Assembly (NCBI GenBank): GCA_964016885.1 | Contig: OZ024740.1 | Span: 296,546,001-296,610,000 of the forward strand | Reading direction: 5' to 3' | DNA from: Eledone cirrhosa | Taxonomy: Eukaryota | Length of the DNA stretch: 64,000 bases | Shown here: positions 1-25,769 of the stretch, piece after piece | Position numbering within the stretch: the first letter of the stretch is position 1 | Layout of the letters: every line of letters starts with the position of its first letter | Notes under the pieces: model-generated | The model's input: only the letters and a program-made list of their open reading frames with translations | The model's database searches: none | Told to the model about the DNA's origin: nothing | Made by a program: the position numbers and the translations under genes

Positions 1-670
1 GGGTGATCCATTTTTTATTTGGGGGATCCATTTTTTATTTGGGTGATCCATTTTTTATTTGGGTGATCCATTTTTGATTTGGGTGATCCATTTTTTATTT
101 GGGGGATCCATTTTTTATTTGGGTGATCCATTTTTTATTTGGGGGATCCATTTTTTATTTGGGAGATCCATTTTTTATTTGGGTGATCCATTTTTTATTT
201 GGGTGATCCATTTTTTATTTGTTGGATCCATTTTTTATTTGGGGGATCCATTTTTATTTGGGGGACCCTATTTTTATTTGGGGGATCCATTTTACATTTG
301 GGGTATCCATTTTTTATTTGGGTGATCCATTTTTTATTTGGGGGATCCATTTTTTATTTGGGTGATCCATTTTTTATTTGGGTGAGCCATTTTTTATTTG
401 GGTGATCCATTTTTTATTTGTTGGATCCATTTTTTATTTGGTGGATCGACTTTTTATTTGGGGGTTCCATTTTTTATTTGGGGGATCCATTTTACATTTG
501 GGTGATCCATTTTTTATTTGGGTGATCCATTTTTTATTTGGGGGATCCATTTTTTATTTGGGTGATCCATTTTTTATTTGGGGGATCCATTTTTTATTTG
601 GGTGATCCATTTTCTATTTGGGGGATCGATTTTTTATTTGGGGGTTCCATTTTTTATTTGGGGGATCCAT

Positions 671-745
671 CAAATAAAAAATGGATCACCCAAATAAAAA
701 ATGGATCACCCAAATAAAAAATGGATCCCCCAAATAGAAAATGGA
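671..745 (-). repeat. Inverted satellite A block, 75 bp, TAGAAA subtype
   Basis: CAAATAAAAAATGGATC(A/C)CC is the reverse complement of the monomer; block ends at the centre of ATGGA|TCCAT. Confidence 0.97.
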
Positions 746-3700
746 TCCATTTTTTATTTGGGTGATCCATATTTTATTTGGGTGATCCATTTTTATTTGG
801 GGTATCCATTTTTTATTTGTGTGATCCATTTTTTATTTTGCGGATCCATTTTTTATTTGGAGGATCCATTTTTTATTTGGGGATCCATTTTTTATTTAGG
901 TGATCCATTTTTTAGTTGGGTGATCCATTTTTATTTGGGGGATCCATTTTTTATTTGTGTGATCCATTTTTTATTTGGCGGATCCATTTTTATTTGGGGG
1001 ATCCATTTTTTATTTGTGTGATCCATTTTTTATTTGGCAGATCCATTTTTTATTTGGGGGAACCATTTTTTATTTGGGTGATCCATTTTTTATTTGGCGG
1101 ATCCATTTTTTATTTGGGTGATCCATTTTTTATTTGGGGGATCCATTTTTTATTTGGGTGATCCATTTTTTATTTGGGTGATCCATTTTTGATTTGGGTG
1201 ATCCATTTTTTATTTGGGGGATCCATTTTTTATTTGGGTGATCCATTTTTTATTTGGGTGATCCATTTTTTATTTGGGCGATCCATTTTTTATTTTGGTG
1301 ACCCATTTTTTATTTTGGTGATCCATTTTTTATTTGTTGGATCCATTTTTTATTTGGGGGATCTATTTTTATTTGGGGGTCCCTATTTTTATTTGGGGGA
1401 TCCATTTTACATTTGGGTGATCCATTTTTTATTTGGGTGATCCATTTTTTATTTGGTGGATCCATTTTTTATTTGGGGTATCCATTTTTTATTTGGGTGA
1501 TCCATTTTTTATTTGGGGGATCCATTTTTTATTTGGGTGATCCATTTTTTATTTGGGTGATCCATTTTTTATTTGGGTGATCCATTTTTTATTTGTTGGA
1601 TCCATTTTTTATTTGGGGGATCCATTTTTTATTTGGGGGTTCCATTTTTTATTTGGGGGATCCATTTTACATTTGGGTGATCCATTTTTTATTTGGGTGA
1701 TCCATTTTTTATTTGGGGGATCCATTTTTTATTTGGGTGATCCATTTTTTATTTGGGTGATCCAGTTTTTGTTTGGGTGATCCATTTTTTATTTGGGGGA
1801 TCCATTTTTAATTTGGGTGATCCATTTTTTATTTGTTGGATCCATTTTTTATTTGGGGGATCCATTTTTTATTTGGGGGATCCATTTTTTATTTGGGTGA
1901 TCCATTTTTTATTTGGGGGATCCATTTTTTATTTAGGTGATCCATTTTTTAGTTGGGTGATCCATTTTTTTGGGGGGGGATCCATTTTTTATTTGTGTGA
2001 TCCATTTTTTATTTGGCGGATCCATTTTTATTTGGGGGATCCATTTTTTATTTGTGTGATCCATTTTTTATTTGGCAGATCCATTTTTTATTTGGGGGAT
2101 CCATTTTTTATTTGGGTGATCCATTTTTTATTTGGGGGATCCATTTTTTATTTGGGTGATCCATTTTCTATTTGGGTGATCCAGTTTTTGTTTGGATGAT
2201 CCATTTTTTATTTGGGGGATCCATTTTTTATTTGTTGGATCCATTTTTTATTTGGGGGATCCATTTTTTATTTGGGGGTTCCATTTTTTATTTGGGGGAT
2301 CCATTTTACATTTGGGTGATCCATTTTTTATTTGGGTGATCCATTTTTTATTTGGGGGATCCATTTTTTATTTAGGGGATCCATTTTTTATTTGGGGGTT
2401 CCATTTTTTATTTGGGTGATCCATTTTTTATTTGGGGGATCCATTTTTTATTTAGGTGATCCATTTTTTAGTTGGGTGATCCATTTTTATTTGGGGGATC
2501 CATTTTTTATTTGTGTGATCCATTTTTTATTTGGCGGATCCATTTTTTATTTGGGGGATCCATTTTTTATTTGGGGATCCATTTTTTATTTAGGTGATCC
2601 ATTTTTTAGTTGGGTGATCCATTTTTATTTGGGGGATCCATTTTTTATTTGTGTGATCCATTTTTTATTTGGCGTATCCATTTTTATTTGGGGGATCCAT
2701 TTTTTATTTGTGTGATCCATTTTTTATTTGGCAGATCCATTTTTTATTTGGGGGATCCATTTTTTAGTTGGGTGATCCATTTTTTATTTGGGGGATCCAT
2801 TTTTTATTTGGGTGATACATTTTTTATTTGGGGGATCCATTTTTTATTTGGGTGATCCATTTTTTATTTGGGTGATCCATATTTTATTTGGGTGATCCAT
2901 TTTTTATTTGGGGGATCCATTTTTTATTAGGGTGATCCAATTTTTTATTTGGGTGATCCATTTTTTATTTGGGTGATCCATTTTTTATTTGGGTGATCCA
3001 TTTTTTATTTGGGGGATCCATTTTTTATTTGGGTGATCCATTTTTGATTTGGGTGATCCATTTTTTATTTGGGGGATCCATTTTTTATTTGGGTGATCCA
3101 TTTTTTATTTGGGGGATCCATTTTTTATTTGGGAGATCCATTTTTGATTTGGGTGATCCATTTTTTATTTGGGTGATTCATTTTTTATTTGTTGGATCCA
3201 TTTTTTATTTGGGGGATCCATTTTTATTTGGGGGACCCTATTTTTATTTGGGGGATCCATTTTACATTTGGGTGATCCATTTTTTATTTGGGTGATCCAT
3301 TTTTTATTTGGTGGATCCATTTTTTATTTGGGGTATCCATTTTTTATTTGGGTGATCCATTTTTTATTTGGGGGATCCATTTTTTATTTGGGTTATCCAT
3401 TTTTTATTTGGGTGATCCATTTTTTATTTGGGTGATCCATTTTTTATTTGTTGGATCCATTTTTTATTTGGGGGATCCATTTTTTATTTGGGGGTTCCAT
3501 TTTTTATTTGGGGGATCCATTTTACATTTGGGTGATCCATTTTTTATTTGGGTGATCCATTTTTTATTTGGGGGATCCATTTTTTATTTGGGTGATCCAT
3601 TTTTTATTTGGGTGATCCAGATTTTGTTTGGGTGATCCATTTTTTATTTGGGGGATCCATTTTTCATTTGGGTGATCCATTTTTTATTTGTTGGATCCAT

Positions 3701-5355
3701 TTTTTATTTGGGGGATCCATTTTTTATTTGGGGGTTCCATTTTTTATTTGGGGGATCCATTTTACATTTGGGTGATCCATTTTTTATTTGGGTGACCCAT
3801 TTTTTATTCGGGGGATCCATTTTTTATTTGGGGGATCCATTTTTTATTTGGGGGTTCCATTTTTTATTTGGGTGATCCATTTTTTATTTGGGGGATCCAT
3901 TTTTTATTTAGGTGATCCATTTTTTAGTTGGGTGATCCATTTTTATTTGGGGGATCCATTTTTTATTTGTGTGATCCATTTTTTATTTGGCGGATCCATT
4001 TTTTATTTGGGGGATCCATTTTTTATTTGGGTGATCCATTTTTTATTTGGGGTATCCATTTTTTATTAGGGTGATACATTTTTTATTTGGGGGATCCATT
4101 TTTTATTTGGGTGATCCATTTTTTATTTGGGTGATCCATATTTTATTTGCGTGATCCATTTTTTATTTGGGTGATCCATTTTTTATTTGGGTGATCCATT
4201 TTTTATTTGGGGGATCCATTTTTTATTTGGGTGATCCATTTTTTATTTGGGTGATCCATTTTTTATTTGGGGGATCCATTTTTTATTTGGGTGATCCATT
4301 TTTTATTTGGGGGATCCAGTTTTTGTTTGGGTGATCCATTTTTTATTTGGGGGATCCATTTTTTATTTGGGTGATCCATATTTTATTTAGGGGATCCATT
4401 TTTTATTTGGGTGATCCATTTTTTATTTGGGTGATCCATTTTTTATTTGGGTGATCCATTTTTTATTTTGGGGATCTATTTTTTATTTGGGTGATCCATT
4501 TTTTATTTGGGGGATCCATTTTTTTTTTGGTGATCCATTTTTTATTTGGGGATCCATTTTTTATTTGGGGGATCCATTTTTTATTTGGGTGATCCATTTT
4601 TTATTTGGGGGATCCATTTTTTATTTGGGTGATCCATTTTTAATTTGGGGATCCATTTTTTATTTGGGTGATCCATTTTTTATTTGGGGGATCCATTTTT
4701 TATATGGGTGATCCATTTTTTATTTGGGGGATCCATTTTGTATTTGGGTGATCCATTTTTTATTTGGGGGATCCATTTTTTATTTGGGGGATCCATTTTT
4801 TATTTGGGTGATCCACATTTTATTTGGGTGATCCAATTTTTATTTGAGGGATCCATTTTTTATTTGGGTGATCCATTTTTTATTTGGGTGATCCATTTTT
4901 TATTTGGGTGATCCATTTTCTATTTGGGTGATCCATTTTTTATTTGGGGTTTCCATTTTTTATTTGGATGATCCATTTTTTATTTGGGGGATCCATTTTT
5001 TATTTGGCGATCCAATTTTTATTTGGGTGATCCATTTTTTTATTGGGCGATCCATTTTTTATTTGGGTGATCCATTTTTTATTTGGGGGATCCATTATTT
5101 ATTTGTGTGATCCATTTTATATTTGGGGGATCCATTTTTTATTTGGGTGATCCATTTTTTATTTTGGAGATCCATTTTTTATTTGGGGGATCCATTTTTT
5201 ATTTGGGGGATCCATTTTTTATTTGGGTGATCCATTTTTTATTTGGGTGATCCATTTTTTATTTGGGGGATCCATTTTACATTTGGGTGATCCATTTTTT
5301 ATTTGGGTGATCCATTTTTTATTTGGGGGTTCCATTTTTTATTTGGGGGATCCAT

Positions 5356-5390
5356 CAAATAAAAAATGGATCCCCCAAATAAAAAATGGA
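5356..5390 (-). repeat. Inverted satellite A block, 35 bp
   Basis: Reverse-complement monomers with the same two junctions. Confidence 0.95.
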
Positions 5391-5832
5391 TCCATTTTTT
5401 ATTTGGGTGATCCATTTTTTATTTGGGGGATCCATTTTTTATTTGGGTGATCCAGTTTTTGTTTGGGTGATCCATTTTTTATTTGGGGGATCCATTTTTT
5501 ATTTGGGTGATCCATATTTTATTTAGGGGATCGATTTTTTATTTGGTGATCCATTTTTTATTTGGGTGATCCATTCTTTATTTGGGTGATCCATTTTTTA
5601 TTTTGGGGATCTATTTTTTATTTGGGTGATCCATTTTTTATTTGGGGATCCATTTTTTATTTGGGTGATCCATTTTTTTATTTGGGGGATCCATTTTTTA
5701 TTTGGGGGATCCATTTTTTATTTGGGTGATCCATTTTTTATTTGGGGGATCCATTTTTTATTTGGGTGATCCATTTTTTATTTGGGGGATCCATTTTTTA
5801 TTTGGGGGGCCATTTTTTATTTGGGGATCCAT

Positions 5833-5907
5833 CAAATAAAAAATGGATCACCCAAATAAAAAATGGATCACCCAAATAAAAAATGGATCCCTCAAATAAA
5901 AAATGGA
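5833..5907 (-). repeat. Inverted satellite A block, 75 bp, CCTCAAAT subtype
   Basis: Reverse-complement monomers, preceded by the GGGGGGCCAT variant. Confidence 0.95.
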
Positions 5908-6989
5908 TCCATTTTTTATTTGGGGGATCCATTTTTTATTTGGGGGTTCCATTTTTTATTTGGGGGATCCATTTTACATTTGGGTGATCCATTTTTTATT
6001 TGGGTGATCCATATTTTATTTGGGGGATCCATTTTTTATTTGGGGGATCCATTTTTTATTTGGGTGATCCATTCTTTATTTGGGGGATCCATTTTTTATT
6101 TAGGTGATCCATTCTTTAGTTGGGTGATCCATTTATATTTGGGGGATCCATTTTTTATTTGTGTGATCCATTTTTTATTTGGCAGATCCATTTTTTATTT
6201 GGGGGATCCATTTTTTATTTGGGTGATCCATTTTTTATTTGGGGGATCCATTTTTTATTTGGGTTATACATTTTTTATTTGGGGGATCCATTTTTTATTT
6301 GGGTGATCCATTTTTTATTTGGGTGATCCATATTTTATTTGGGTGATCCATTTTTTATTTGGGGGATCCATTTTTATTTGGGTGATCTATTTTTGATTTG
6401 GGTGATCCATTTTTTATTTGGGGGATCCATTTTTTATTTGGGTGATCCATTTTTTATTTGGGGGATCCATTTTTTATTTGGGAGATCCATTTTTTATTTG
6501 GGTGATCCATTTTTTATTTGGGTGATCCATTTTTTATTTGTTGGATCCATTTTTTATTTGGGGGATCCATTTTTATTTGGGGGACCCTATTTTTATTTGG
6601 GGGATCCATTTTACATTTGGGGTATCCATTTTTTATTTGGGTGATCCATTTTTTATTTGGGGGATCCATTTTTTATTTGGGTGATCCATTTTTTATTTGG
6701 GTGATCCATTTTTTATTTGGGTGATCCATTTTTTATTTGTTGGATCCATTTTTTATTTGGTGGATCGACTTTTTATTTGGGGGTTCCATTTTTTATTTGG
6801 GGGATCCATTTTACATTTGGGTGATCCATTTTTTATTTGGGTGATCCATTTTTTATTTGGGGGATCCATTTTTTATTTGGGTGATCCATTTTTTATTTGG
6901 GGGATCCATTTTTTATTTGGGTGATCCATTTTCTATTTGGGGGATCGATCTTTTATTTGGGGGTTCCATTTTTTATTTGGGGGATCCAT

Positions 6990-7064
6990 CAAATAAAAAA
7001 TGGATCACCCAAATAAAAAATGGATCACCCAAATAAAAAATGGATCCCCCAAATAGAAAATGGA
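6990..7064 (-). repeat. Inverted satellite A block, 75 bp, TAGAAA subtype
   Basis: Reverse-complement monomers with the same junctions. Confidence 0.95.
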
Positions 7065-7643
7065 TCCATTTTTTATTTGGGTGATCCATATTTTATTTAG
7101 GGGATCCATTTTTTATTTGGGGGATCCATTTTTATTTGGGTGATCTATTTTTGATTTGGGTGATCCATTTTTTATTTGGGGGATCCATTTTTTATTTAGG
7201 GGATCCATTTTTTATTTGGGTGATCCATTTTTTATTTGGGGATCCATTTTTTATTTGGGGGATCCATTTTTTATTTGGGTGATCCATTTTTTATTTGGGG
7301 GATCCATTTTTTATTTGGGTGATCCATTTTTAATTTGGGGATCCATTTTTTATTTGGGTGATCCATTTTTTATTTGGGGGATCCATTTTTTGTTTGGGTT
7401 ATCCATTTTTTATTTGGGGGATCCATTTTGTATTTGGGTGATCCATTTTTTATTTGGGGGATCCATTTTTTATTTGAGGGATTATTTTTTATTTGGGTGA
7501 TCCAATTTTTATTTGAGGGATCCATTTTTTATTTGGGTGATCCATTTTTTATTTGGGTGATCCATTTTTTATTTGGGTGATCCATTTTCTATTTGGGTGA
7601 TCCATTTTTTATTTGGGGGGCTATTTTTTATTTGGGGATCCAT

Positions 7644-7698
7644 CAAATAAAAAATGGATCACCCAAATAAAAAATGGATCCCTCAAATAAAAAATGGA
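7644..7698 (-). repeat. Inverted satellite A block, 55 bp, CCTCAAAT subtype
   Basis: Reverse-complement monomers with the same junctions. Confidence 0.95.
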
Positions 7699-8620
7699 TC
7701 CATTTTTTATTTGGGGGATCCATTTTTTATTTGGGGGTTCCATTTTTTATTTGGGGGATCCATTTTACATTTGGGTGATCCATTTTTTATTTGGGTGATC
7801 CATATTTTATTTGGGGGATCCATTTTTTATTTGGGGGATCCATTTTTTATTTGGTTGATCCATTTTTTATTTGGGGGATCCATTTTTTATTTAGGTGATC
7901 CATTCTTTAGTTGGGTGATCCATTTTTATTTGGGGGATCCATTTTTTATTTGTGTGATCCATTTTTTATTTGGCAGATCCATTTTTTATTTGGGGGATCC
8001 ATTTTTTATTTGGGTGATCCATTTTTTATTTGGGGGATCCATTTTTTATTTGGGTTATACATTTTTTATTTGGGGGATCCATTTTTTATTTGGGTGATCC
8101 ATTTTTTATTTGGGTGATCCATATTTTATTTGGGTGATCCATTTTTTATTTGGGGGATCCATTTTTATTTGGGTGATCCATTTTTGATTTGGGTGATCCA
8201 TTTTTTATTTGGGGGATCCATTTTTTATTTGGGTGATCCATTTTTTATTTGGGGGATCCATTTTTTATTTGGGAGATCCATTTTTGATTTGGGTGATCCA
8301 TTTTTTATTTGGGTGATCCATTTTTTATTTGTTGGATCCATTTTTTATTTGGGGGATCCATTTTTATTTGGGGGACCCTATTTTTATTTGGGGGATCCAT
8401 TTTACATTTGGGGTATCCATTTTTTATTTGGGTGATCCATTTTTTATTTGGGGGATCCATTTTACATTTGGGTGATCCATTTTTTATTTGGGGGATCCAT
8501 TTTTTATTTGGGTGATCCATTTTTTATTTGGGGGATCCATTTTTTATTTGGGTGATCCATTTTCTATTTGGGGGATCGATTTTTTATTTGGGGGTTCCAT
8601 TTTTTATTTGGGGGATCCAT

Positions 8621-8695
8621 CAAATAAAAAATGGATCACCCAAATAAAAAATGGATCACCCAAATAAAAAATGGATCCCCCAAATAGAAAATGGA
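8621..8695 (-). repeat. Inverted satellite A block, 75 bp, TAGAAA subtype
   Basis: Reverse-complement monomers with the same junctions. Confidence 0.95.
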
Positions 8696-10075
8696 TCCAT
8701 TTTTTATTTGGGTGATCCATATTTTATTTAGGGGATCCATTTTTTATTTGGGTGATCCATTTTTTATTTGGGTGATCCATTTTTTATTTGGGTGATCCAT
8801 TTTTTATTTGGGTGATCCATTTTTTATTTTGGGGATCTATTTATTATTTGGGTGATCCATTTTTTATTTGGGGGATCCATTTTTTTTTGGTGATCCATTT
8901 TTTATTTGGGGATCCATTTTTTATTTGGGGGATCCATTTTTTATTTGGGTGATCCATTTTTTATTTGGGGGATCCATTTTTTATTTGGGTGATACATTTT
9001 TAATTTGGGGATCCATTTTTTATTTGGGTGATCCATTTTTTATTTGGGGGATCCATTTTTTGTTTGGGTTATCCATTTTTTATTTGGGGGATCCATTTTG
9101 TATTTGGGTGATCCATTTTTTATTTGGGGGATCCATTTTTTATTTGGGGGATTATTTTTTATTTGGGTGATCCAATTTTTATTTGAGGGATCCATTTTTT
9201 ATTTGGGTGATCCATTTTTTATTTGGGTGATCCATTTTTTATTTGGGTGATCCATTTTCTATTTGGGTGATCCATTTTTTATTTGGGGGATCCATTTTTT
9301 TATTTGGATGATCCATTTTTTATTTGGGTGATCCATTTTTTATTTGGGGGATCCATTTTTTATTTGGGTGATCCATTTTTTATTTGGGGGATCCATTTTG
9401 TATTTGGGTGATCCATTTTTTATTTGGGGGATCCATTTTTTATTTGGGGGATCCATTTTTTATTTGGGTGATCCAATTTTTATTTGAGGGATCCATTTTT
9501 TATTTGGGTGATCCATTTTTTATTTGGGTGATCCATTTTTTATTTGGGTGATCCATTTTCTATTTGGGTGATCCATTTTTTATTTGGGGGATCCATTTTT
9601 CATTTGGATGATCCATTTTTTATTTGGGGATCCATTTTTTATTTGGGCGATCCAATTTTTATTTGGGTGATCCATTTTTTAATTGGGCGATCCATTTTTT
9701 ATTTGGGTGATCCATTTTTTATTTGGGGGATCCATTTTTTATTTGTGTGATCCATTTTATATTTGGGGGATCCATTTTTTATTTGGGTGATCCATTTTTC
9801 ATTTTGGAGATCCATTTTTTATTTGGGGGATCCATTTTTTATTTGGGTGATCCATTATTTATTTTGGAGATCCATTTTTTATTTGGGGGATCCATTTTTT
9901 ATTTGGGTGATCCATTTTTTATTTGTTGGATCCATTTTTTATTTGGGGGATCCATTTTTTATTTGGGGGTTCCATTTTTTATTTGGGGGATCCATTTTTC
10001 ATTTGGGTGATCCATTTTTTATTTGGGTGATCCATTTTTTATTTGGGGGTTCCATTTTTTATTTGGGGGATCCAT

Positions 10076-10171
10076 CAGATAAAATATGGATCACCCAAAT
10101 AAAAAATGGATCACCCAAATAAAAAATGGATCACCCAAATAAAAAATGGATCCCCCAAATAAAAAAATGGA
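10076..10171 (-). repeat. Inverted satellite A block, 96 bp, mutated left junction (CAGATAAAAT)
   Basis: Reverse-complement monomers; two substitutions in the loop segment. Confidence 0.95.
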
Positions 10172-10513
10172 TCCATTTTTTATTTGGGTGATCCATTTTT
10201 TATTTGGGGGATCCATTTTTTATTTGGGTGATCCATTTTTTATTTGGGTGATCCATTCTTTATTTGTGTGATCCATTTTTTATTTTGGGGATCTATTTTT
10301 TATTTGGGTGATCCATTATTTATTTGGGGATCCATTTTTTATTTGGGTGTTCTATTTTTTATTTGGGGGATCCATTTTTTATTTGGGGGATACATTTTTT
10401 ATTTGGGTGATCCATTTTTTATTTGGGGGATCCATTTTTTATTTGGGTGATCCATTTTTTATTTGGGGGATCCATTTTTTATTTGGGGGGCCATTTTTTA
10501 TTTGGGGATCCAT

Positions 10514-10787
10514 CAAATAAAAAATGGATCACCCAAATAAAAAATGGATCACCCAAATAAAAAATGGATCACCCAAATAAAAAATGGATCCCCCAAATAA
10601 AAAATGGATCCCCCAAATAAAAAATAGAACACCCAAATAAAAAATGGATCCCCAAATAAAAAATGGATCACCCAAATAAAAAATGGATCCCCCAAATAAA
10701 AAATGGATCATCCAAATGAAAAATGGATCCCCCAAATAAAAAATGGATCACCCAAATAAAAAATGGATCCCTCAAATAAAAAATGGA
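10514..10787 (-). repeat. Longest inverted satellite A block, 274 bp, CCTCAAAT subtype
   Basis: About 14 reverse-complement monomers with the same junctions as the short blocks. Confidence 0.97.
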
Positions 10788-10869
10788 TCCATTTTTTATT
10801 TGGAGGATCCATTTTTTATTTGGGTGATACATTTTTTATTTGGGGGATCCATTTTTTATTTGGGTGATC

Positions 10870-13800: not shown

Positions 13801-15075
13801 TGGGTGATCCATTTTTTATTTGGGGGATCCATTTTTTATTTGGGGGATCCATTTTTTATTTGGGGGTTCCATTTTTTATTTGGGTGATCCATTTTTTTAT
13901 TTGGGGGATCCATTTTTTATTTAGGTGATCCATTTTTTAGTTGGGTGATCCATTTTTATTTGGGGGATCCATTTTTTATTTGTGTGATCCATTTTTTATT
14001 TGGCGGATCCATTTTTTATTTGGGGGATCCATTTTTTATTTGGGGATCCATTTTTTATTTAGGTGATCCATTTTTTAGTTGGGTGATCCATTTTTATTTG
14101 GGGGATCCATTTTTTATTTGTGTGATCCATTTTTTATTTGGCGGATCCATTTTTATTTGGGGGATCCATTTTTTATTTGCGTGATCCATTTTTTATTTGG
14201 CAGATCCATTTTTTATTTGGGGGATCCATTTTTTATTTGGGTGATCCATTTTTTATTTGGGGGATCCATTTTTTATTTGGGTGATACATTTTTTATTTGG
14301 GGGATCCATTTTTTATTTGGGTGATCCATTTTTTATTTGGGTGATCCATATTTTATTTGGGTGATCCATTTTTTATTTGGGGGATCCATTTTTTATTTGG
14401 GTGATCCAATTTTTTATTTGGGTGATCCATTTTTTATTTGGGTGATCCATTTTTTATTTGGGTGATCCATTTTTTATTTGGGGGATCCATTTTTATTTGG
14501 GTGATCCATTTTTGATTTGGGTGATCCATTTTTTATTTGGGGGATACATTTTTTATTTGGGTGATCCATTTTTTATTTGGGGGATCCATTTTTTATTTGG
14601 GAGATCCATTTTTGATTTGGGTGATCCATTTTTTATTTGGGTGATTCATTTTTTATTTGTTGGATCCATTTTTTATTTGGGGGATCCATTTTTATTTGGG
14701 GGACCCTATCTTTATTTGGGGGATCCATTTTACATTTGGGTGAACCATTTTTTATTTGGGTGATCCATTTTTTATTTGGTGGATCCATTTTTTATTTGGG
14801 GTATCCATTTTTAATTTGGGTGATCCATTTTTTATTTGGGGGATCCATTTTTTATTTGTTGGATCCATTTTTTATTTGGGGGATCCATTTTTTATTTGGG
14901 GGTTCCATTTTTTATTTGGGGGATCCATTTTACATTTGGGTGATCCATTTTTTATTTGGGTGATCCATTTTTTATTTGGGGGATCCATTTTTTATTTGGG
15001 GGATCCATTTTTTATTTGGGGGTTCCATTTTTTATTTGGGTGATCCATTTTTTATTTGGGGGATCCATTTTTTAT
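10870..15075 (+). repeat. Higher-order tandem duplication, 2 x 2098 bp
   Basis: Identical ORF translations at a constant offset of 2098 (11141/13239, 11847/13945, 12360/14458, 12658/14756). Confidence 0.92.
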
Positions 15076-16642
15076 TTAGGTGATCCATTTTTTAGTTGGG
15101 TGATCCATTTTTATTTGGGGGATCCATTTTTTATTTGTGTGATCCATTTTTTATTTGGCGGATCCATTCTTTATTTGGGGGATCCATTTTTTATTTGGGT
15201 GATCCATTTTTTATTTGGGTATCCATTTTTTATTAGGGTGATACATTTTTTATTTGGGGGATCCATTTTTTATTTGGGTGATCCATTTTTTATTTGGGTG
15301 ATCCATATTTTATTTGGGTGATCCATTTTTTATTTGGGTGATCCATTTTTTATTTGGGTGATCCATTTTTTATTTCGGAGATCCATTTTTTATTTGGGTG
15401 ATCCATTTTTTATTTGGGTGATCCATTTTTTATTTGGGGGATCCATTTTTTATTTGGGTGATCCATTTTTTATTTGGGGGATCCAGTTTTTGTTTGGGTG
15501 ATCCATTTTTTATTTGGGGGATCCATTTTTTATTTGGGTGATCCATATTTTATTTAGGGGATCCATTTTTTATTTGGGTGATCCATTTTTTATTTGGGTG
15601 ATCCATTTTTTATTTGGGTGATCCATTTTTTATTTTGGGGATCTATTTTTTATTTGGGTGATCCATTTTTTATTTGGGGGATCCATTTTTTTTTTGGTGA
15701 TCCATTTTTATTTGGGGATCCATTTTTTATTTGGGGGATCCATTTTTTATTTGGGTGATCCATTTTTTATTTGGGGGATCCATTTTTTATTTGGGTGATC
15801 CATTTTTAATTTGGGGATCCATTTTTTATTTGGGTGATCCATTTTTTATTTGGGGGATCCATTTTTTATTTGGGTGATCCATTTTTTATTTGGGGGATCC
15901 ATTTTGTATTTGGGTGATCCATTTTTTATTTGGGGGATCCATTTTTTATTTGGGGGATCCATTTTTTATTTGGGTGATCCACTTTTTATTTGGGTGATCC
16001 AATTTTTATTTGAGGGATCCATTTTTTATTTGGGTGATCCATTTTTTATTTGGGTGATCCATTATTTATTTGGGTGATCCATTTTCTATTTGGGTGATCC
16101 ATTTTTTATTTGGGGGATCCATTTTTTATTTGGATGATCCATTTTTTATTTGGGGGATCCATTTTTTATTAGGGCGATCCAATTTTTATTTGGGTGATCC
16201 ATTTTTTTATTGGGCGATACATTTTTTATTTGGGTGATCCATTTTTTATTTGGGGGATCCATTATTTATTTGTGTGATCCATTTTATATTTGGGGGATCC
16301 ATTTTTTATTTGGGTGATCCATTTTTTATTTTGGAGATCCATTTTTTATTTGGGGGATCCATTTTTTATTTGGGGGATCCATTTTTTATTTGGGTGATCC
16401 ATTTTTTATTTTGGAGATCCATTTTTTATTTGGGGGATCCATTTTTTATTTGGGTGATCCATTTTTTATTTGGGTGATCCATTTTTTATTTGTTGGATCC
16501 ATTTTTTATTTGGGGGATCCATTTTTTATTTGGGGGCTCCATTTTTTATTTGGGGGATCCATTTTACATTTGGGTGATCCATTTTTTATTTGGGTGATCC
16601 ATTTTTTATTTGGGGGTTCCATTTTTTATTTGGGGGATCCAT

Positions 16643-16717
16643 CAAATAAAAAATGGATCACCCAAATAAAAAATGGATCCCCCAAATAAAAAATGGATCC
16701 CCCAAATAAAAAATGGA
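16643..16717 (-). repeat. Inverted satellite A block, 75 bp
   Basis: Reverse-complement monomers with the same junctions. Confidence 0.95.
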
Positions 16718-17159
16718 TCCATTTTTTATTTGGGTGATACATTTTTTATTTGGGGGATCCATTTTTTATTTGGGTGATCCAGTTTTTGTTTGGGTGATCC
16801 ATTTTTTATTTGGGGGATCCATTTTTTATTTGGGTGATCCATATTTTATTTAGCGGATCGATTTTTTATTTGGGTGATCCAATTTTTATTTGGGTGATCC
16901 ATTCTTTATTTGGGTGATCCATTTTTTATTTTGGGGATCTATTTTTTATTTGGGTGATCCATTTTTTATTTGGGGATCCATTTTTTATTTGGGTGATCCA
17001 TTTTTTATTTGGGGGATCCATTTTTTATTTGGGGGATCCATTTTTTATTTGGGTGATCCATTTTTTATTTGGGGGATCCATTTTTTATTTGGGTGATCCA
17101 TTTTTTATTTGGGGGATCCATTTTTTATTTGGGGGGCCATTTTTTATTTGGGGATCCAT

Positions 17160-17234
17160 CAAATAAAAAATGGATCACCCAAATAAAAAATGGATCACCC
17201 AAATAAAAAATGGATCCCTCAAATAAAAAATGCA
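17160..17234 (-). repeat. Inverted satellite A block, 75 bp, CCTCAAAT subtype, right junction ATGCATCCAT
   Basis: Reverse-complement monomers; the palindrome centre is mutated. Confidence 0.95.
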
Positions 17235-18256
17235 TCCATTTTTTATTTGGGGGATCCATTTTTTATTTGGGGGTTCCATTTTCTATTTGGGGGATCCATT
17301 TTACATTTGGGTGATCCATTTTTTATTTGGGTGATCCATATTTTATTTGGGGGATCCATTTTTTATTTGGGGGATCCATTTTTTATTTGGGTGATCCATT
17401 TTTTATTTGGGGGATCCATTTTTTATTTAGGTGATCCATTCTTTAGTTGGGTGATCCATTTTTATTTGGGGGATCCATTTTTTATTTGTGTGATCCATTT
17501 TTTATTTGGCAGATCCATTTTTTATTTGGGGGATCCATTTTTTATTTGGGTGATCCATTTTTTATTTGGGGGATCCATTTTTTATTTGGGTTATACATTT
17601 TTTATTTGGGGGATCCATTTTTTATTTGGGTGATACATTTTTTATTTGGGTGATCCATATTTTATTTGGGTGATCCATTTTTTATTTGGGGGATCCATTT
17701 TTATTTGGGTGATCCATTTTTGATTTGGGTGATCCATTTTTTATTTGGGGGATCCATTTTTTATTTGGGAGATCCATTTTTGATTTGGGTGATCCATTTT
17801 TTATTTGGGTGATCCATTTTTTATTTGTTGGATCCATTTTTTATTTGGGGGATCCATTTTTATTTGGGGGACCCTATTTTTATTTGGGGGATCCATTTTA
17901 CATTTGGGGTATCCATTTTTTATTTGGGTGATCCATTTTTTATTTGGGGGATCCATTTTTTATTTGGGTGATCCATTTTTTATTTGGGTGATCCATTTTT
18001 TATTTGGGTGATCCATTTTTTATTTGTTGGATCCATTTTTTATTTGGTGGATCGACTTTTTATTTGGGGGTTCCATTTTTTATTTGGGGGATCCATTTTA
18101 CATTTGGGTGATCCATTTTTTATTTGGGTGATCCATTTTTTATTTGGGGGATCCATTTTTTATTTGGGTGATCCATTTTTTATTTGGGGGATCCATTTTT
18201 TATTTGGGTGATCCATTTTCTATTTGGGGGTTCCATTTTTTATTTGGGGGATCCAT

Positions 18257-18331
18257 CAAATAAAAAATGGATCACCCAAATAAAAAATGGATCACCCAAA
18301 TAAAAAATGGATCCCCCAAATAGAAAATGGA
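18257..18331 (-). repeat. Inverted satellite A block, 75 bp, TAGAAA subtype
   Basis: Reverse-complement monomers with the same junctions. Confidence 0.95.
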
Positions 18332-19156
18332 TCCATTTTTTATTTGGGTGATCCATATTTTATTTAGGGGATCCATTTTTTATTTGGGTGATCCATTTTT
18401 TATTTGGGTGATCCATTTTCTATTTGGGTGATCCATTTTTTATTTTGGGGATCTATTTTTTATTTGGGTGATCCATTTTTTATTTGGGGGATCCATTTTT
18501 TATTTGGGGGATCCATCTTTTATTTCGGGGATCCATTTTTTATATGGGGGATCCATTTTTTATTTGGGTGATCCATTTTTTATTTGGGGGATCCATTTTT
18601 TATTTGGGTGATCCATTTTTTATTTGGGGGATCCATTTTTTATTTGGGTGATCCATTTTTTATTTGGGGGTTCCATTTTTTATTTGGGTGATCCATTTTT
18701 TATTTGGGGGATCCATTTTGTATTTGGGTGATCCATTTTTTATTTGGGGGATCCATTTTTTATTTGGTGGATCCATTTTTTATTTGGGGTATCCATTTTT
18801 TATTTGGGTGATCCATTTTTTATTTGGGGGATCCATTTTTTATTTGGGTGATCCATTTTTTATTTGGGTGATCCATTTTTTATTTGGGTGATCCATTTTT
18901 TATTTGTTGGATCCATTTTTTATTAGGGGGATCCATTTTTTATTTGGGGGTTCCATTTTTTATTTGGGAGATCCATTTTACATTTGGGTGATCCATTTTT
19001 TATTTGGGTGATCCATTTTTTTGGGGGGGGATCCATTTTTTATTTGGGTGATCCATTTTTTATTTGGGGGATCCATTTTTTACTTGGGTGATCCATTTTT
19101 TATTTGGGGGATCCATTTTTTATTTGGGGGTTCCATTTTTTATTTGGGGGATCCAT

Positions 19157-19231
19157 CAAATAAAAAATGGATCACCCAAATAAAAAATGGATCACCCAAA
19201 TAAAAAATGGATCCCCAAAATAAAAAATGGA
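19157..19231 (-). repeat. Inverted satellite A block, 75 bp, CCCCAAAAT subtype
   Basis: Reverse-complement monomers with the same junctions. Confidence 0.95.
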
Positions 19232-19833
19232 TCCATTTTTTATTTGGGGGATCCATTTTTTATTTAGGTGATCCATTCTTTAGTTGGGTGATCCATTTTT
19301 ATTTGGGGGATCCATTTTTTATTTGTGTGATCCATTTTTTATTTGGCAGATCCATTTTTTATTTGGCCGATCCATTTTTTATCTGGGTGATCCATTTTTA
19401 ATTTGGGGGATCCATTTTTTATTTGGGTGATCCATTTTTTATTTGGGTGATCCATTTTTTATTTGGGTGATCCATTTTTTATTTGGTGGATCCATTTTTT
19501 ATTTGGGGTATCCATTTTTTATTTGGGTGATCCATTTTTTATTTGGGTGATCCATTTTTTATTTGGGTGATCCATTTTTTATTTGTTGGATCCATTTTTT
19601 ATTTGGGGGATCCATTTTTTATTTGGGGGTTCCATTTTTTTTGGGAGATCCATTTTACATTTGGGTGATCCATTTTTTATTTGGGTGATCCATTTTTTAT
19701 TTGGGGGATCCATTTTTTATTTGGGTGATCCATTTTTTATTTGGGGGATCCATTTTTTATTTGGGTGATCCATTTTTTATTTGGGGGATCCATTTTTTAT
19801 TTGGGGGTTCCATTTTTTATTTGGGGGATCCAT

Positions 19834-19888
19834 CAAATAAAAAATGGATCACCCAAATAAAAAATGGATCCCCCAAATAAAAAATGGA
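19834..19888 (-). repeat. Inverted satellite A block, 55 bp, right junction ATGGATGCAT
   Basis: Reverse-complement monomers; the palindrome centre is mutated. Confidence 0.95.
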
Positions 19889-20370
19889 TGCATTTTTTAT
19901 TTAGGTGATCCATTCTTTAGTTGGGTGATCCATTTTTATTTGGGGGATCCATTTTTTATTTGTGTGATCCATTTTTTATTTGGCAGATCCATTTTTTATT
20001 TGGGGGATCCATTTTTTATCTGGGTGATCCATTTTTAATTTGGGGGATCCATTTTTTATTTGGGTGATACATTTTTTATTTGGGGATCCATTTTTTATTT
20101 GGGTGATCCATTTTTTATTTGGGTGATCCTTTTTTTATTTGGTGGATCGACTTTTTATTTGGGGGTTCCATTTTTTATTTGGGGGATCCATTTTACATTT
20201 GGGTGATCCATTTTTTATTTGGGTGATCCATTTTTTATTTGGGTGATCCATTTTTTATTTGGGTGATCCATTTTTTATTTGGGGGATCCATTTTTTATTT
20301 GGGTGATCCATTTTCTATTTGGGGGATCGATTTTTTATTTGGAGGTTCCAGTTTTATTTGGGGGATCCAT

Positions 20371-20445
20371 CAAATAAAAAATGGATCACCCAAATAAAAA
20401 ATGGATCACCCAAATAAAAAATGGATCCCCCAAATAGAAAATGGA
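20371..20445 (-). repeat. Inverted satellite A block, 75 bp, TAGAAA subtype
   Basis: Reverse-complement monomers with the same junctions. Confidence 0.95.
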
Positions 20446-21289
20446 TCCATTTTTTATTTGGGTGATCCATATTTTATTTAGGGGATACATTTTTTATTTG
20501 GGTGATCCATTTTTTATTTGGGTGATCCATTTTTTATTTGGGTGATCCATTTTTTATTTTGGGGATCTATTTTTTATTTGGGTGATCCATTTTTTATTTG
20601 GGGGATCCATTTTTTATTTGGGGGATCCATTTTTTATTTGGGTGATCCATTTTTTATTTGGGGGATCCATTTTTTATTTGGGTGATCCATTTTTTATTTG
20701 GGGGATCCATTTTTTATTTGGGTGATCCATTTTTTATTTGGGGGATCCATTTTGTATTTGGGTGATCCATTTTTTATTTGGGGGATCCATTTTTTATTTG
20801 GGGGATCCATTTTTATTTGGGGCACCCTATTTTTATTTGGGGGATCCATTTTACATTTGGGTGATCCATTTTTTATTTGGGTGATCCATTTTTTATTTGG
20901 TGGATCCATTTTTTATTTGGGGTATCCATTTTTTATTTGGGTGATCCATTTTTTATTTGGGGGATCCATTCTTTATTTGGGTGATCCATTTTTTATTTGG
21001 GTGATCCATTTTTTATTTGGGTGATCCATTTTTTATTTGTTGGATCCATTTTTTATTTGGGGGATCCATTTTTTATTTGGGGGTTCCATTTTTTATTTGG
21101 GAGATCCATTTTACATTTGGGTGATCCATTTTTTATTTGGGTGATCCATTTTTTATTTGGGGGATCCATTTTTTATTTGGGTGATCCATTTTTTATTTGG
21201 GGGATCCATTTTTTATTTGGGTGATCCATTTTTTATTTGGGGGATCCATTTTTTATTTGGGGGTTCCATTTTTTATTTGGGGGATCCAT

Positions 21290-21364
21290 CAAATAAAAAA
21301 TGGATCACCGAAATAAAAAATGGATCACCCAAATAAAAAATGGATCCCCAAAATAAAAAATGGA
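21290..21364 (-). repeat. Inverted satellite A block, 75 bp, CCCCAAAAT subtype
   Basis: Reverse-complement monomers with the same junctions. Confidence 0.95.
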
Positions 21365-21948
21365 TCCATTTTTTATTTGGGGGATCCATTTTTTTATTTA
21401 GGTGATCCATTCTTTAGTTGGGTGATCCATTTTTATTTGGGGGATCCATTTTTTATTTGTGTGATCCATTTTTTATTTGGCAGATCCATTTTTTATTTGG
21501 GGGATCCATTTTTTATCTGGGTGATCCATTTTTAATTTGGGGGATCCATTTTTTATTTGGGTGATCCATTTTTTATTTGGGTGATCCATTTTTTATTTGG
21601 GTGATCCATTTTTTATTTGGTGGATCCATTTTTTATTTGGGGTATCCATTTTTTATTTGGGTGATCCATTTTTTATTTGGGTGATCCATTTTTTATTTGT
21701 TGGATCCATTTTTTATTTGGGGGATCCATTTTTTATTTGGGGGTTCCATTTTTTATTTGGGAGATCCATTTTACATTTGGGTGATCCATTTTTTATTTGG
21801 GGTATCCATTTTTTATTTGGGTGATCCATCTTTTATTTGGGTGATCCATTTTTTATTTGGGGGATCCATTTTTTATTTGGGTGATCCATTTTCTATTTGG
21901 GGGATCGATTTTTTATTTGGGGGTTCCAGTTTTATTTGGGGGATCCAT

Positions 21949-22023
21949 CAAATAAAAAATGGATCACCCAAATAAAAAATGGATCACCCAAATAAAAAAT
22001 GGATCCCCCAAATAGAAAATGGA
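21949..22023 (-). repeat. Inverted satellite A block, 75 bp, TAGAAA subtype
   Basis: Reverse-complement monomers with the same junctions. Confidence 0.95.
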
Positions 22024-22947
22024 TCCATTTTTTATTTGGGTGATCCATATTTTATTTAGGGGATACATTTTTTATTTGGGTGATCCATTTTTTATTTGGG
22101 TGATCCATTTTTTATTTGGGTGATCCATTTTTTATTTTGGGGATCTATTTTTTATTTGGGTGATCCATTTTTTATTTGGGGGATCCATTTTTTATTTGGG
22201 GGATCCATTTTTTATTTGGGGGATCCATTTTTTATATGGGGGATCCATTTTTTATTTGGGTGATCCATTTTTTATTTGGGGGATCCATTTTTTATTTGGG
22301 TGATCCATTTCTTATTTGGGGGATCCATTTTTTATTTGGGTGATCCATTTTTTATTTGGGGGATCCATTTTTTATTTGGGTGATCCATTTTTTATTTGGG
22401 GGATCCATTTTGTATTTGGGTGATCCATTTTTTATTTGGGGGATCCATTTTTTATTTGGGGGATCCATTTTTATTTGGGGCACCCTATTTTTATTTGGGG
22501 GATCCATTTTACATTTGGGTGATCCATTTTTTATTTGGGTGATCCATTTTTTATTTGGTGGATCCATTTTTTATTTGGGGTATCCATTTTTTATTTGGGT
22601 GATCCATTTTTTATTTGGGGGATCCATTCTTTATTTGGGTGATCCATTTTTTATTTGGGTGATCCATTTTTTATTTGGGTGATCCATTTTTTATTTGTTG
22701 GATCCATTTTTTATTTGGGGGATCCATTTTTTATTTGGGGGTTCCATTTTTTAATTGGGAGATCCATTTTACATTTGGGTGATCCATTTTTTATTTGGGT
22801 GACCCATTTTTTATTTGGGGGATCCATTTTTTATTTGGGTGATCCATTTTTTATTTGGGGGATCCATTTTTTATTTGGGTGATCCATTTTTTATTTGGGG
22901 GATCCATTTTTTATTTGGGGGTTCCATTTTTTATTTGGGGGATCCAT

Positions 22948-23022
22948 CAAATAAAAAATGGATCACCCAAATAAAAAATGGATCACCCAAATAAAAAATG
23001 GATCCCCAAAATAAAAAATGGA
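22948..23022 (-). repeat. Inverted satellite A block, 75 bp, CCCCAAAAT subtype
   Basis: Reverse-complement monomers with the same junctions. Confidence 0.95.
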
Positions 23023-24004
23023 TCCATTTTTTATTTGGGGGATCCATTTTTTATTTAGGTGATCCATTCTTTAGTTGGGTGATCCATTTTTATTTGGGGG
23101 ATCCATTTTTTATTTGTGTGATCCATTTTTTATTTGGCAGATCCATTTTTTATTTGGGGGATCCATTTTTTATCTGGGTGATCCATTTTTAATTTGGGGG
23201 ATCCATTTTTTATTTGGGTGATCCATTTTTTATTTGGGTGATCCATTTTTTATTTGGGTGATCCATTTTTTATTTGGTGGATCCATTTTTTATTTGGGGT
23301 ATCCATTTTTTATTTGGGTGATCCATTTTTTATTTGGGTGATCCATTTTTTATTTGTTGGATCCATTTTTTATTTGGGGGATCCATTTTTTATTTGGGGG
23401 TTCCATTTTTTATTTGGGAGATCCATTTTACATTTGGGTGATCCATTTTTTATTTGGGGTATCCATTTTTTATTTGGGTGATCCATTTTTTATTTGGGTG
23501 ATCCATTTTTTATTTGTTGGATCCATTTTTTATTTGGGGGATCCATTTTTTATTTGTTGGATCCATTTTTATTTGGGGGATCCATTTGTATTTGGGGGAC
23601 CCTATTTTTATTTGGGGGATCCATTTTACATTTGGGGTATCCATTTTTTATTTGGGTGATCCATTTTTTATTTGGGGGATCCATTTTTTATTTGGGTGAT
23701 CCATTTTTTATTTGGGTGATCCATTTTTTATTTGGGTGATCCATTTTTTATTTGTTGGATCCATTTTTTATTTGGTGGATCGACTTTTTATTTGGGGGTT
23801 CCATTTTTTATTTGGGGGATCCATTTTACATTTGGGTGATCCATTTTTTATTTGGGTGATCCATTTTTTATTTGGGGGATCCATTTTTTATTTGGGTGAT
23901 CCATTTTTTATTTGGGGGATCCATTTTTTATTTGGGTGATCCATTTTCTATTTGGGGTATCGATTTTTTATTTGGGGGTTCCATTTTTTATTTGGGGGAT
24001 CCAT

Positions 24005-24079
24005 CAAATAAAAAATGGATCACCCAAATAAAAAATGGATCACCCAAATAAAAAATGGATCCCCAAAATAAAAAATGGA
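24005..24079 (-). repeat. Inverted satellite A block, 75 bp, CCCCAAAAT subtype
   Basis: Reverse-complement monomers with the same junctions. Confidence 0.95.
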
Positions 24080-24683
24080 TCCATTTTTTATTTGGGGGAT
24101 CCATTTTTTATTTAGGTGATCCATTCTTTAGTTGGGTGATCCATTTTTATTTGGGGGATCCATTTTTTATTTGTGTGATCCATTTTTTATTTGGCAGATC
24201 CATTTTTTATTTGGGGGATCCATTTTTTATCTGGGTGATCCATTTTTAATTTGGGGGATCCATTTTTTATTTGGGTGATCCATTTTTTATTTGGGTGATC
24301 CATTTTTTATTTGGGTGATCCATTTTTTATTTGGTGGATCCATTTTTTATTTGGGGTATCCATTTTTTATTTGGGTGATCCATTTTTTATTTGGGTGATC
24401 CATTTTTTATTTGTTGGATCCATTTTTTATTTGGGGGATCCATTTTTTATTTGGGGGTTCCATTTTTTATTTGGGAGATCCATTTTACATTTGGGTGATC
24501 CATTTTTTATTTGGGTGATCCATTTTTTATTTGGGGGATCCATTTTTTATTTGGGGGATCCATTTTTTATTTGGGTGATCCATTTTTTATTTGGGGGATC
24601 CATTTTTTATTTGGGTGATCCATTTTTTATTTGGGGGATCCATTTTTTATTTGGGGGTTCCATTTTTTATTTGGGGGATCCAT

Positions 24684-24738
24684 CAAATAAAAAATGGATC
24701 ACCCAAATAAAAAATGGATCCCCCAAATAAAAAATGGA
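24684..24738 (-). repeat. Inverted satellite A block, 55 bp, the last one in the window
   Basis: Reverse-complement monomers with the same junctions. Confidence 0.95.
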
Positions 24739-25769
24739 TCCATTTTTTATTTGGGGGATCCATTTTTTATTTAGGTGATCCATTCTTTAGTTGGGTGATC
24801 CATTTTTATTTGGGGGATCCATTTTTTATTTGTGTGATCCATTTTTTATTTGGCAGATCCATTTTTTATTTGGGGGATCCATTTTTTATCTGGGTGATCC
24901 ATTTTTAATTTGGGGGATCCATTTTTTATTTGGGTGATACATTTTTTATTTGGGGATCCATTTTTTATTTGGGTGATCCATTTTTTATTTGGGTGATCCA
25001 TATATTATTTGGGTGATCCATTTTTTATTTGGGGGATCCATTTTTTATTTGGGTGATCCAATTTTTTATTTGGGTGATCCATTTTTTATTTGGGGGATCC
25101 ATTTTTTATTTGGGTGAACCTTTTTTTATTTGGGTGATCCATTTTTTATTTGGGTGATCCATTTTTTATTTGGGGGATCCATTTTTTATTTGGGTGATCC
25201 ATTTTTGATTTGGGTGATCCATTTTTTATTTGGGGGATCCATTTTTTATTTGGGTGATCCATTTTTTATTTGGGGGGATCCATTTTTTATTTGGGAGATC
25301 CATTTTTGATTTGGGTGATCCATTTTTTATTTGGGTGATCCATTTTTTATTTGTTGGATCCATTTTTATTTGGGGGATCCATTTGTATTTGGGGGACCCT
25401 ATTTTTATTTGGGGGATCCATTTTACATTTGGGTGATCCATTTTTTATTTGGGTGATCCATTTTTTATTTGGTGGATCCATTTTTTATTTGGGGTATCCA
25501 TTTTTTATTTGGGTGATCCATTTTTTATTTGGGGGATCCATTTTTTATTTGGGTGACCCATTTTTTATTTGGGGGATCCATTTTTTATTTGGGTGATCCA
25601 TATTTTATTTAGGGGATCCATTTTTTATTTGGGTGATCCATTTTTTATTTGGGGGATCCATTTTTTATTTGGGTGATCCATTTTTTATTTGGGGGATCCA
25701 TTTTTTATTTGGGGGATCCATTTTTTATTTGGGTGATCCATTTTTTATTTGGGGATCCATTTTTTATTT

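What the first reader, a model, noticed from the sequence alone, without database searches (positions are those of the whole stretch)
671..24738. Family of 19 stereotyped micro-inversions (fold-back modules) spread through satellite A
Seen: 19 blocks of reverse-complement monomers measuring 35, 55, 75, 96 or 274 bp, i.e. about 15+20n. All open with GGGGATCCAT|CAAATAAAAA|ATGGATC (one has a mutated loop), which can fold as a stem with a 10-nt loop against the upstream monomers. All close at the palindrome ...AAAATGGA|TCCATTTT... (two have one substitution), centred on the monomer's own GGATCC. Each block thus makes two adjacent inverted-repeat centres that could form hairpins or cruciforms. Known: quasi-palindrome template switching during replication produces short inversions. 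Inference: one or two switch events used the self-complementary GGATCC core to return to the original strand. The module was then amplified with the array, gaining or losing whole monomers. If transcribed, it would give hairpin RNA that could feed siRNA-directed silencing. A function is not demonstrated.
Basis: partly seen in the sequence, partly recalled or inferred. Interest (0 to 1): 0.72.

Follow-up and report, generated by a model that had tools for sequence, protein, structure and literature searches.

The report
Copied inversion scars in satellite DNA
Nineteen short back-to-front patches in a 20-base repeat array are present in the assembly and share the same two joins; they are likely copies of one old inversion multiplied as the array grew, they likely act now and then as U-turns for mirror-copying nearby DNA, and no function is shown.

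Summary
The 19 blocks are there as described. Measured between the two GGATCC centres they are whole monomers (40, 60, 80, 101, 279 bp), so '15+20n' is a measuring offset. The opening junction (J1) is a normal monomer joined to a reversed GATG-head monomer. That variant is common in sister arrays (298 of 566 monomers) and absent from this one (0 of 14,614). J1 makes up 439 of 454 forward-to-reverse switches in 616 kb of this satellite on C1 and recurs on C6 and C195; the switch expected from ordinary monomers has 0 hits genome-wide. The modules fall into SNP-linked lineages inside exact repeats (median 1.1 kb), so they are likely amplified copies of one old inversion. They likely also seed later mirror copying: the 279-bp block holds exact reversed copies of two unique upstream tracts, and a 1,319-bp identical inverted duplication 52 kb upstream is centred on a module. 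Raw reads and expression remain untested. Conserved, amplified inversion sites are published for Tribolium satellites, and this scan already noted the same junction family 308 kb and 16.9 Mb away. A known kind; low interest.

The parts
1..25780 (+). Satellite A, 20-bp monomer with a GATC palindromic core; right end of a 278-kb mostly one-strand sub-array
666..745 (-). Module 1, 80 bp, J1 centre to J2 centre; lineage with the TAGAAA variant
5351..5390 (-). Module 2, 40 bp; plain lineage
5828..5907 (-). Module 3, 80 bp; lineage with 19-bp left monomer and CCCTC variant
6985..7064 (-). Module 4, 80 bp; TAGAAA lineage
7639..7698 (-). Module 5, 60 bp; CCCTC lineage, one monomer shorter
8616..8695 (-). 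Module 6, 80 bp; TAGAAA lineage
9561..9629 (+). Forward tract whose exact 69-bp reversed copy lies inside module 8 (10690-10758)
10071..10171 (-). Module 7, 101 bp; two substitutions in the first reversed monomer, one extra base
10319..10391 (+). Forward tract whose exact 73-bp reversed copy lies inside module 8 (10588-10660)
10509..10787 (-). Module 8, 279 bp; CCCTC lineage enlarged by about 10 monomers that include reversed copies of two upstream tracts
16638..16717 (-). Module 9, 80 bp; plain lineage
17155..17234 (-). Module 10, 80 bp; CCCTC lineage, one substitution in J2
18252..18331 (-). Module 11, 80 bp; TAGAAA lineage
19152..19231 (-). Module 12, 80 bp; CCCCAAAA lineage
19829..19888 (-). 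Module 13, 60 bp; one substitution in J2
20366..20445 (-). Module 14, 80 bp; TAGAAA lineage
21285..21364 (-). Module 15, 80 bp; CCCCAAAA lineage
21944..22023 (-). Module 16, 80 bp; TAGAAA lineage
22943..23022 (-). Module 17, 80 bp; CCCCAAAA lineage
24000..24079 (-). Module 18, 80 bp; chimera with the left flank of the TAGAAA lineage and the right half of the CCCCAAAA lineage
24679..24738 (-). Module 19, 60 bp
25781..64000 (+). Satellite B, a related 19-20-bp repeat that largely lacks the GATC core; no strand switch (comparison only)

Best explanation
The 19 blocks share one opening junction and one closing junction, both centred on the monomer's GGATCC, and are likely passive copies of one old in-register inversion that was multiplied as the array grew. 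Step 1 (inferred): a strand switch joined an ordinary monomer to an opposite-facing GATG-head monomer, whose core gives 8 bp of inverted microhomology instead of 6; this left J1, and the return switch left J2. Step 2 (shown as structure, inferred as process): tandem duplication copied the module with its flanks into 151 copies in this 278-kb sub-array, with slippage or unequal exchange changing length by whole monomers and now and then swapping halves between lineages. Step 3 (shown as structure, inferred as process): because each module holds monomers facing the other way, a stalled or broken strand can pair with them and copy nearby DNA in mirror image. This enlarges blocks, makes larger inverted duplications and flips existing junctions, without making new junction sequences. 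No function is needed.
For: Whole-monomer lengths and in-register flip-back. J1 is 439 of 454 forward-to-reverse switches; 418 of 435 reverse-to-forward switches are three GGATCC-centred types one base apart. The ordinary-monomer switch has 0 genome hits against 407 exact J1. GATG heads: 298 of 566 in subfamily C, 33 of 77 on C3, 16 of 47 on C2, both edges of the C6 array, but 0 of 14,614 in the 296-Mb array and 3 of 8,051 in the 279-Mb array. In 97 of 147 forward-facing modules the monomer before J1 is a GTTCC-type variant; the plain form of that variant is 441 of 13,441 monomers. Left and right flanks stay linked in a few lineages, and 140 of 147 modules lie in exact repeats of 200 bp or more (median 1,135, max 6,036). 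J1 also occurs on C6 and C195, and a rare GGCG-type neighbour of J2 is shared across C1, C6 and C195. Two markers occur only twice each in 774 kb, once forward and once reversed in module 8, in exact tracts of 73 and 69 bp. Inverted arms identical at 1,319 of 1,319 bp flank a module's J2 with a 113-bp asymmetric spacer. All four arm-to-arm link types exist, which tandem duplication alone cannot give.
Against: No pre-inversion allele matching a flipped-back module was identified; the 15 forward GATG monomers followed by an A-type head lie in other contexts. The test that J1 and J2 are reciprocal halves of one event went mostly against the prediction: 80 of 272 links in the 279-Mb array and 52 of 155 in the left 296-Mb array fit it, against 2 of 2 on C195 and 7 of 10 in L010. 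J1 has several left-hand heads (GGGG, GGGA, GGGT, a 19-bp form) and J2 three forms, so more than one origin is possible. At least 15 forward-to-reverse and 17 reverse-to-forward switches are of other types, so new junctions do arise. GATG is one substitution from the GTTG head (35 copies in the window), so it need not come from a sister array. Raw reads were not seen.
Confidence: 0.75

Rival explanations
1. J1 was made once by snap-back of a broken 3' end onto its own strand, creating the odd bases afresh rather than using an existing GATG monomer; the later steps are the same.
For: GATG heads are almost absent from the arrays that hold J1. The register of J1 could be reached with wobble and mismatch pairs at the primer end (inference). 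The C6 closing junction is a perfect palindrome with 137-bp arms, as fold-back or palindrome correction would give.
Against: The GATG monomer is abundant in un-inverted older and sister arrays. The 3' end in question folds at only -1.0 kcal/mol and in another register. None of 454 forward-to-reverse switches on C1 has an exact mirror of 40 bp or more, against about 3% for random in-register pairs (copies are not independent).
Confidence: 0.13
2. The modules arise again and again at a sequence-guided hot spot, so the shared junctions reflect mechanism, not descent.
For: The same J1 occurs on three contigs and with different neighbours. Eleven of 147 modules have an ordinary monomer before J1.
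Against: SNP-linked lineages and kb-long exact repeats through the modules. Several module-free stretches of 12-21 kb within the same sub-array, and only 2 modules in 210 kb of C195, although GGATCC sites are everywhere.
Confidence: 0.05
3. The modules are kept by selection as hairpin or cruciform elements, or as sources of hairpin RNA for silencing.
For: Modules with flanks fold at -45 to -84 kcal/mol (6 of 19 folded) against -11 to -16 for 10 module-free stretches. Tribolium authors propose such roles for conserved inversion sites (PMC13081366, PMC12581902; passages).
Against: Any inversion in a repeat array folds strongly, so the energies show nothing about use. Density is uneven, 1 to 19 per 20 kb. 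Junction cores carry substitutions. Satellite B has no switch in about 67 kb.
Confidence: 0.05
4. The blocks are an assembly or sequencing artefact.
For: Raw reads were not examined. The 1,319-bp inverted arms outside the window are 100% identical, as a read fold-back would also be.
Against: Modules carry heritable variants linked to their flanks, chimeras, private substitutions and both orientations, on three contigs. Chimeric reads would not give this pattern.
Confidence: 0.02

Closest known systems
Conserved inversion sites in Tribolium freemani and T. madens satellites ('macro-dyad symmetries'; PMC12581902, PMC13081366; passages read)
   Same: A few junction types reused hundreds of times, no foreign DNA at the junction, the same types on different chromosomes, predicted hairpins, function untested; here too intermingled with a second satellite in one array.
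   Different: Here the monomer is 20 bp, the reversed blocks in the window are 2-14 monomers (about 6% of the array) rather than multi-kb symmetric subarrays, both junctions keep the register on a palindromic core, and unique markers show mirror copying from a junction. Centromeric location was not tested.
Strand switches in human HSat3B5 (chr9) and beta-satellite arrays (10.1101/2021.07.12.452052; 10.64898/2026.07.22.740206; passages read)
   Same: Hundreds of switches within arrays; the 2026 preprint reads them as by-products of array expansion.
   Different: The passages seen do not trace the switches to one or two junction sequences.
Microinversions flanked by short inverted repeats; short-range template switching (PMC8755829, abstract; PMC7954356, passages)
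   Same: A precise short inversion bounded by inverted microhomology; near-palindrome to palindrome conversion fits the C6 junction.
   Different: Those are single events of 17-33 nt found against an outgroup allele; here one event is likely amplified and no ancestral allele is in hand.
Fold-back inverted duplications with a single-copy spacer (PMC3907307, abstract)
   Same: The 1,319-bp identical arms with a 113-bp asymmetric spacer bounded by short inverted sequence.
   Different: Applies to the secondary events, not the 19 modules; it returns to the array's strand instead of ending in a terminal deletion.

Membership tests
Tribolium-type satellite dyad symmetry with conserved inversion sites | Monomer orientation changes within arrays | tested here: met
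   889 switches in 616 kb
Tribolium-type satellite dyad symmetry with conserved inversion sites | Few conserved junction types in many copies, no foreign sequence at the junction | tested here: met
   439 of 454 and 418 of 435
Tribolium-type satellite dyad symmetry with conserved inversion sites | Same junction types on non-homologous chromosomes | tested here: met
   C1, C6 and the small contig C195; only 3 copies found off C1
Tribolium-type satellite dyad symmetry with conserved inversion sites | Multi-kilobase, roughly symmetric inverted subarrays | tested here: not met
   Window blocks are 40-279 bp; longer reversed blocks up to 7.5 kb occur only in the other sub-arrays. It works like this kind but is not a macro-dyad in the window.
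Tribolium-type satellite dyad symmetry with conserved inversion sites | Location in (peri)centromeric regions of all chromosomes | not testable with these tools
   No centromere data; most J1 copies found lie at C1 279.5-296.6 Mb
Microinversion flanked by inverted repeats | Inverted segment is the exact reverse complement of an ancestral allele | tested here: inconclusive
   Flip-back is in register, but no matching un-inverted allele was identified
Microinversion flanked by inverted repeats | Short inverted repeats at both ends | tested here: met
   GGATCC core at both centres in 17 of 19, one substitution at J2 in 2
Microinversion flanked by inverted repeats | Each is an independent event | tested here: not met
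   Linked lineages and exact repeats through modules
Fold-back inverted duplication | Identical inverted arms around a single-copy spacer | tested here: not met
   Not met for the junctions of the modules; met only for secondary events: 1,319-bp arms, the 73/69-bp tracts, the C6 137-bp arms
Hairpin-RNA (siRNA) locus | Transcribed and processed into small RNAs | not testable with these tools
   No expression data were in hand

The most novel reading that the evidence does not exclude
The junction pair is a self-spreading structural element: it turns a one-strand satellite into a self-inverting array by priming mirror copying, long perfect mirrors at the opening junction are purged while short hairpins are kept, and the roughly 1-kb-spaced hairpins are retained by selection for heterochromatin or centromere structure.
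Probability: 0.07. Interest if true: 0.65.

Novelty: new member of a known kind. Interest (0 to 1): 0.26.

Why it matters
As it stands it is a clean worked example of how satellites gain hundreds of strand switches from very few breaks. It shows that conserved junction sequences can come from descent alone, a caution for reading the conserved Tribolium inversion sites as functional. Module 8 gives a marker-level trace of two-step mirror copying inside a satellite, which is usually invisible. If selection or a structural role were shown, it would give a small clonable test object for the idea that non-B DNA shapes heterochromatin or centromeres.

Tried and rejected
Raw-read confirmation was not obtained, so read-level support stays open. 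BLAST self-search for long inverted repeats returned nothing and was replaced by a k-mer search. The first flank-sharing test counted 23 false modules of 170 and was redone. A two-mismatch class wrongly absorbed a T-run/A-run junction and was corrected. Reciprocal-pair linkage test: mostly against the prediction. A perfect GATG-to-GATG palindromic junction as ancestor of J1: 0 hits at up to 1 mismatch. A foldback transposon as source: the spacers in the left 296-Mb array are another satellite; no transposon search was run. Depletion of long mirrors at junctions is not claimed, because copies are not independent. Nearby look-up of earlier notes was blank. PMC3235474 was not held, so the duplication-inverted-triplication model rests on recall and on a reference title. 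Paper searches; none listed a paper on this satellite, but only titles and abstract starts were seen, the monomer sequence was not searched, and no supplements were opened.
Full report
Setting. The window is pure satellite: a 20-bp repeat A from 1 to about 25,780, then a related repeat B. It lies at G000:C1:296,546,001-296,610,000 in a 3.0-Gb genome. I fetched 120 stretches of 10 kb, covering C1 279.466-279.716 Mb, C1 296.096-296.820 Mb with the window, 210 of 237 kb of contig C195, and spots on C1, C2, C3 and C6.

Observation. Measured between the GGATCC centres they are 40, 60 (x3), 80 (x13), 101 and 279 bp. Flipping each between those centres gives an in-register array whose last monomer has a GATG head. 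So nothing is gained or lost at the junctions, and '15+20n' is a 5-bp offset. The blocks make up 1,640 of 25,780 bp.

What the opening junction is. GATG heads are 298 of 566 monomers there, 33 of 77 in a diverged C3 array and 16 of 47 on C2, and they sit at both edges of a small C6 array. In register they are 0 of 14,614 in the 296-Mb array, 3 of 8,051 in the 279-Mb array and 2 of 4,585 on C195. J1 is therefore an ordinary monomer fused through GATCC to a reversed GATG monomer. Such a monomer offers 8 bp of inverted microhomology instead of 6. Its signature would show in J1 and be lost in J2, which matches the asymmetry seen (inference). GATG is also one substitution from the GTTG head (35 in the window), so its source is not fixed.

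Census. In 616 kb of satellite A on C1 there are 454 forward-to-reverse and 435 reverse-to-forward switches. J1 accounts for 439 of 454; 12 are a T-run/A-run type and 3 another. Of 435, 187 are the perfect palindrome seen in the window, 215 and 16 are one-base variants of it, and 17 are other. Reversed blocks run from 29 bp to 7.5 kb. Genome-wide the switch expected from two ordinary monomers has 0 hits, a GATG-to-GATG palindrome 0 and exact J1 407, of which 317 lay in stretches held. The search tool warns that counts in repeats can be lower bounds. J1 also occurs once on C6, bounding a 1,230-bp block, and twice on C195, bounding 221-bp blocks. A rare GGCG-type monomer next to J2 is shared by C1, C6 and C195.

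Descent. The 278-kb sub-array that ends in the window holds 151 J1, 147 of them forward-facing. Of these 97 follow a GTTCC-type monomer whose plain form is 441 of 13,441 monomers, 22 and 16 follow two other rare variants, and 12 follow ordinary ones. Left flank, inner variant and right flank stay linked in groups of 34, 19, 19, 16, 14, 8, 7 and 7. The longest exact repeat through a module has a median of 1,135 bp and is 200 bp or more for 140 of 147. The window's 19 fall into these lineages, with length variants (60 versus 80 bp) and one clear chimera at 24000. Density is 1 to 19 per 20 kb. This is the pattern of copies carried by higher-order duplication, and it is hard to get from artefacts.

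Mirror copying. Module 8 is the informative exception. Two markers each occur only twice in the 774 kb searched, once forward upstream and once reversed inside the block. They lie in exact tracts of 73 bp (10319-10391 against 10588-10660) and 69 bp (9561-9629 against 10690-10758), in mirror order. J1 keeps its own orientation and left flank, so the tracts were copied, not moved. About 52 kb upstream of the window, arms identical at 1,319 of 1,319 bp flank a module's J2 with a 113-bp asymmetric spacer; the reversed segment carries four flipped modules and ends in existing junction types. The C6 J2 has perfect 137-bp arms with the rare neighbour on both sides. In the other C1 arrays all four arm-to-arm links between J1 and J2 occur. 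I infer that reversed monomers let a stalled or broken strand make a U-turn, as in fold-back inverted duplication (PMC3907307, abstract) and near-palindrome correction (PMC7954356, passages).

Results against my reading. No un-inverted ancestor was identified among 15 forward GATG hits. The prediction that J1 and the variant J2 are reciprocal halves held in only 80 of 272 and 52 of 155 links on C1, with 46 and 20 unclassified, though in 2 of 2 on C195 and 7 of 10 in L010. GATG monomers of subfamily C often have a T-tail (171 of 305), like one J2 variant, but the commonest variant has C. One founding event is thus likely, not shown. Junction arms on C1 are no more mirror-identical than chance: 0 of 454 and 2 of 435 reach 40 bp against 2-3% for random pairs. 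That argues against fresh fold-back at each site but leaves the first event open.

Function. In 6 of 19 modules folded as DNA, the junctions give -17 to -29 kcal/mol per 60 nt, and modules with flanks -45 to -84 against -11 to -16 for 10 control stretches. Any inversion in a repeat would do this. Satellite B, with 25 GATC in 38 kb of the window, has no switch in about 67 kb; this is a weak control, since A also has long module-free stretches. Nothing here bears on transcription, small RNA or centromere role.

Comparison with what is known. Tribolium satellites have a few conserved inversion-site types in thousands of copies, confirmed in raw reads for T. madens, found on several chromosomes in T. 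freemani, and proposed as functional (PMC12581902, PMC13081366; passages). Human HSat3B5 and beta-satellite arrays hold hundreds of switches (passages). Microinversions bounded by short inverted repeats are known (PMC8755829, abstract). This case works like the Tribolium sites but fails the multi-kilobase symmetry feature in the window. The scan's own unreviewed notes reached the same reading for this family 308 kb and 16.9 Mb away and for other satellites of this genome; my reading was recorded before I saw them, and they are not independent support. What this window adds is the GATG-monomer account of J1 and the marker trace in module 8.

Verdict. Real in the assembly, explained by ordinary satellite turnover from likely one old inversion, with likely secondary mirror copying. 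New member of a known kind; interest 0.26.

Noticed in passing
window about 25,780: Sharp in-register change from satellite A to the related satellite B; B runs about 67 kb to C1 296.639 Mb on one strand, and a separate 4.6-kb B array lies reversed at about 296.756-296.761 Mb.
   Followed up: partly
L001-L002 (C1 295.443-295.463 Mb): Subfamily C: alternating GATG- and AGGT-head monomers in blocks with their own, different strand-switch junctions, separated by a non-satellite spacer of about 1 kb.
   Followed up: partly
C1 296.155-296.206 Mb (L065-L070): Satellite A blocks intermingled with another short satellite that has a palindromic AAATTT-type core, in a repeated composite unit with a fixed linker; an assembly gap lies just left of it. 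Similar A-block units with spacers occur in L010, and J1 hits run over C1 295.24-295.37 Mb.
   Followed up: partly
C1 279.466-279.716 Mb (L021, L038, L080): The 279-Mb A array is bordered by a 19-bp satellite on the left and a satellite of roughly 140 bp on the right.
   Followed up: no
L042 (C6 81.030-81.034 Mb): Isolated 3.6-kb A array with GATG monomers at both edges, one 1,230-bp inversion and a 274-bp perfect palindrome.
   Followed up: yes
C195 8,001-218,000: Array of A interrupted by ten copies of a 553-bp insert and four of a 2.7-kb insert, amplified with the array; not identified.
   Followed up: no
L003-L007 (C1 279.65-279.69 Mb): Nested kilobase-scale mirror symmetry, the largest with about 7.7 kb of matched arm.
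   Followed up: partly
window about 10,800-15,000: The longest module-free stretch of the window contains an apparent tandem duplication of about 2.1 kb.
   Followed up: no
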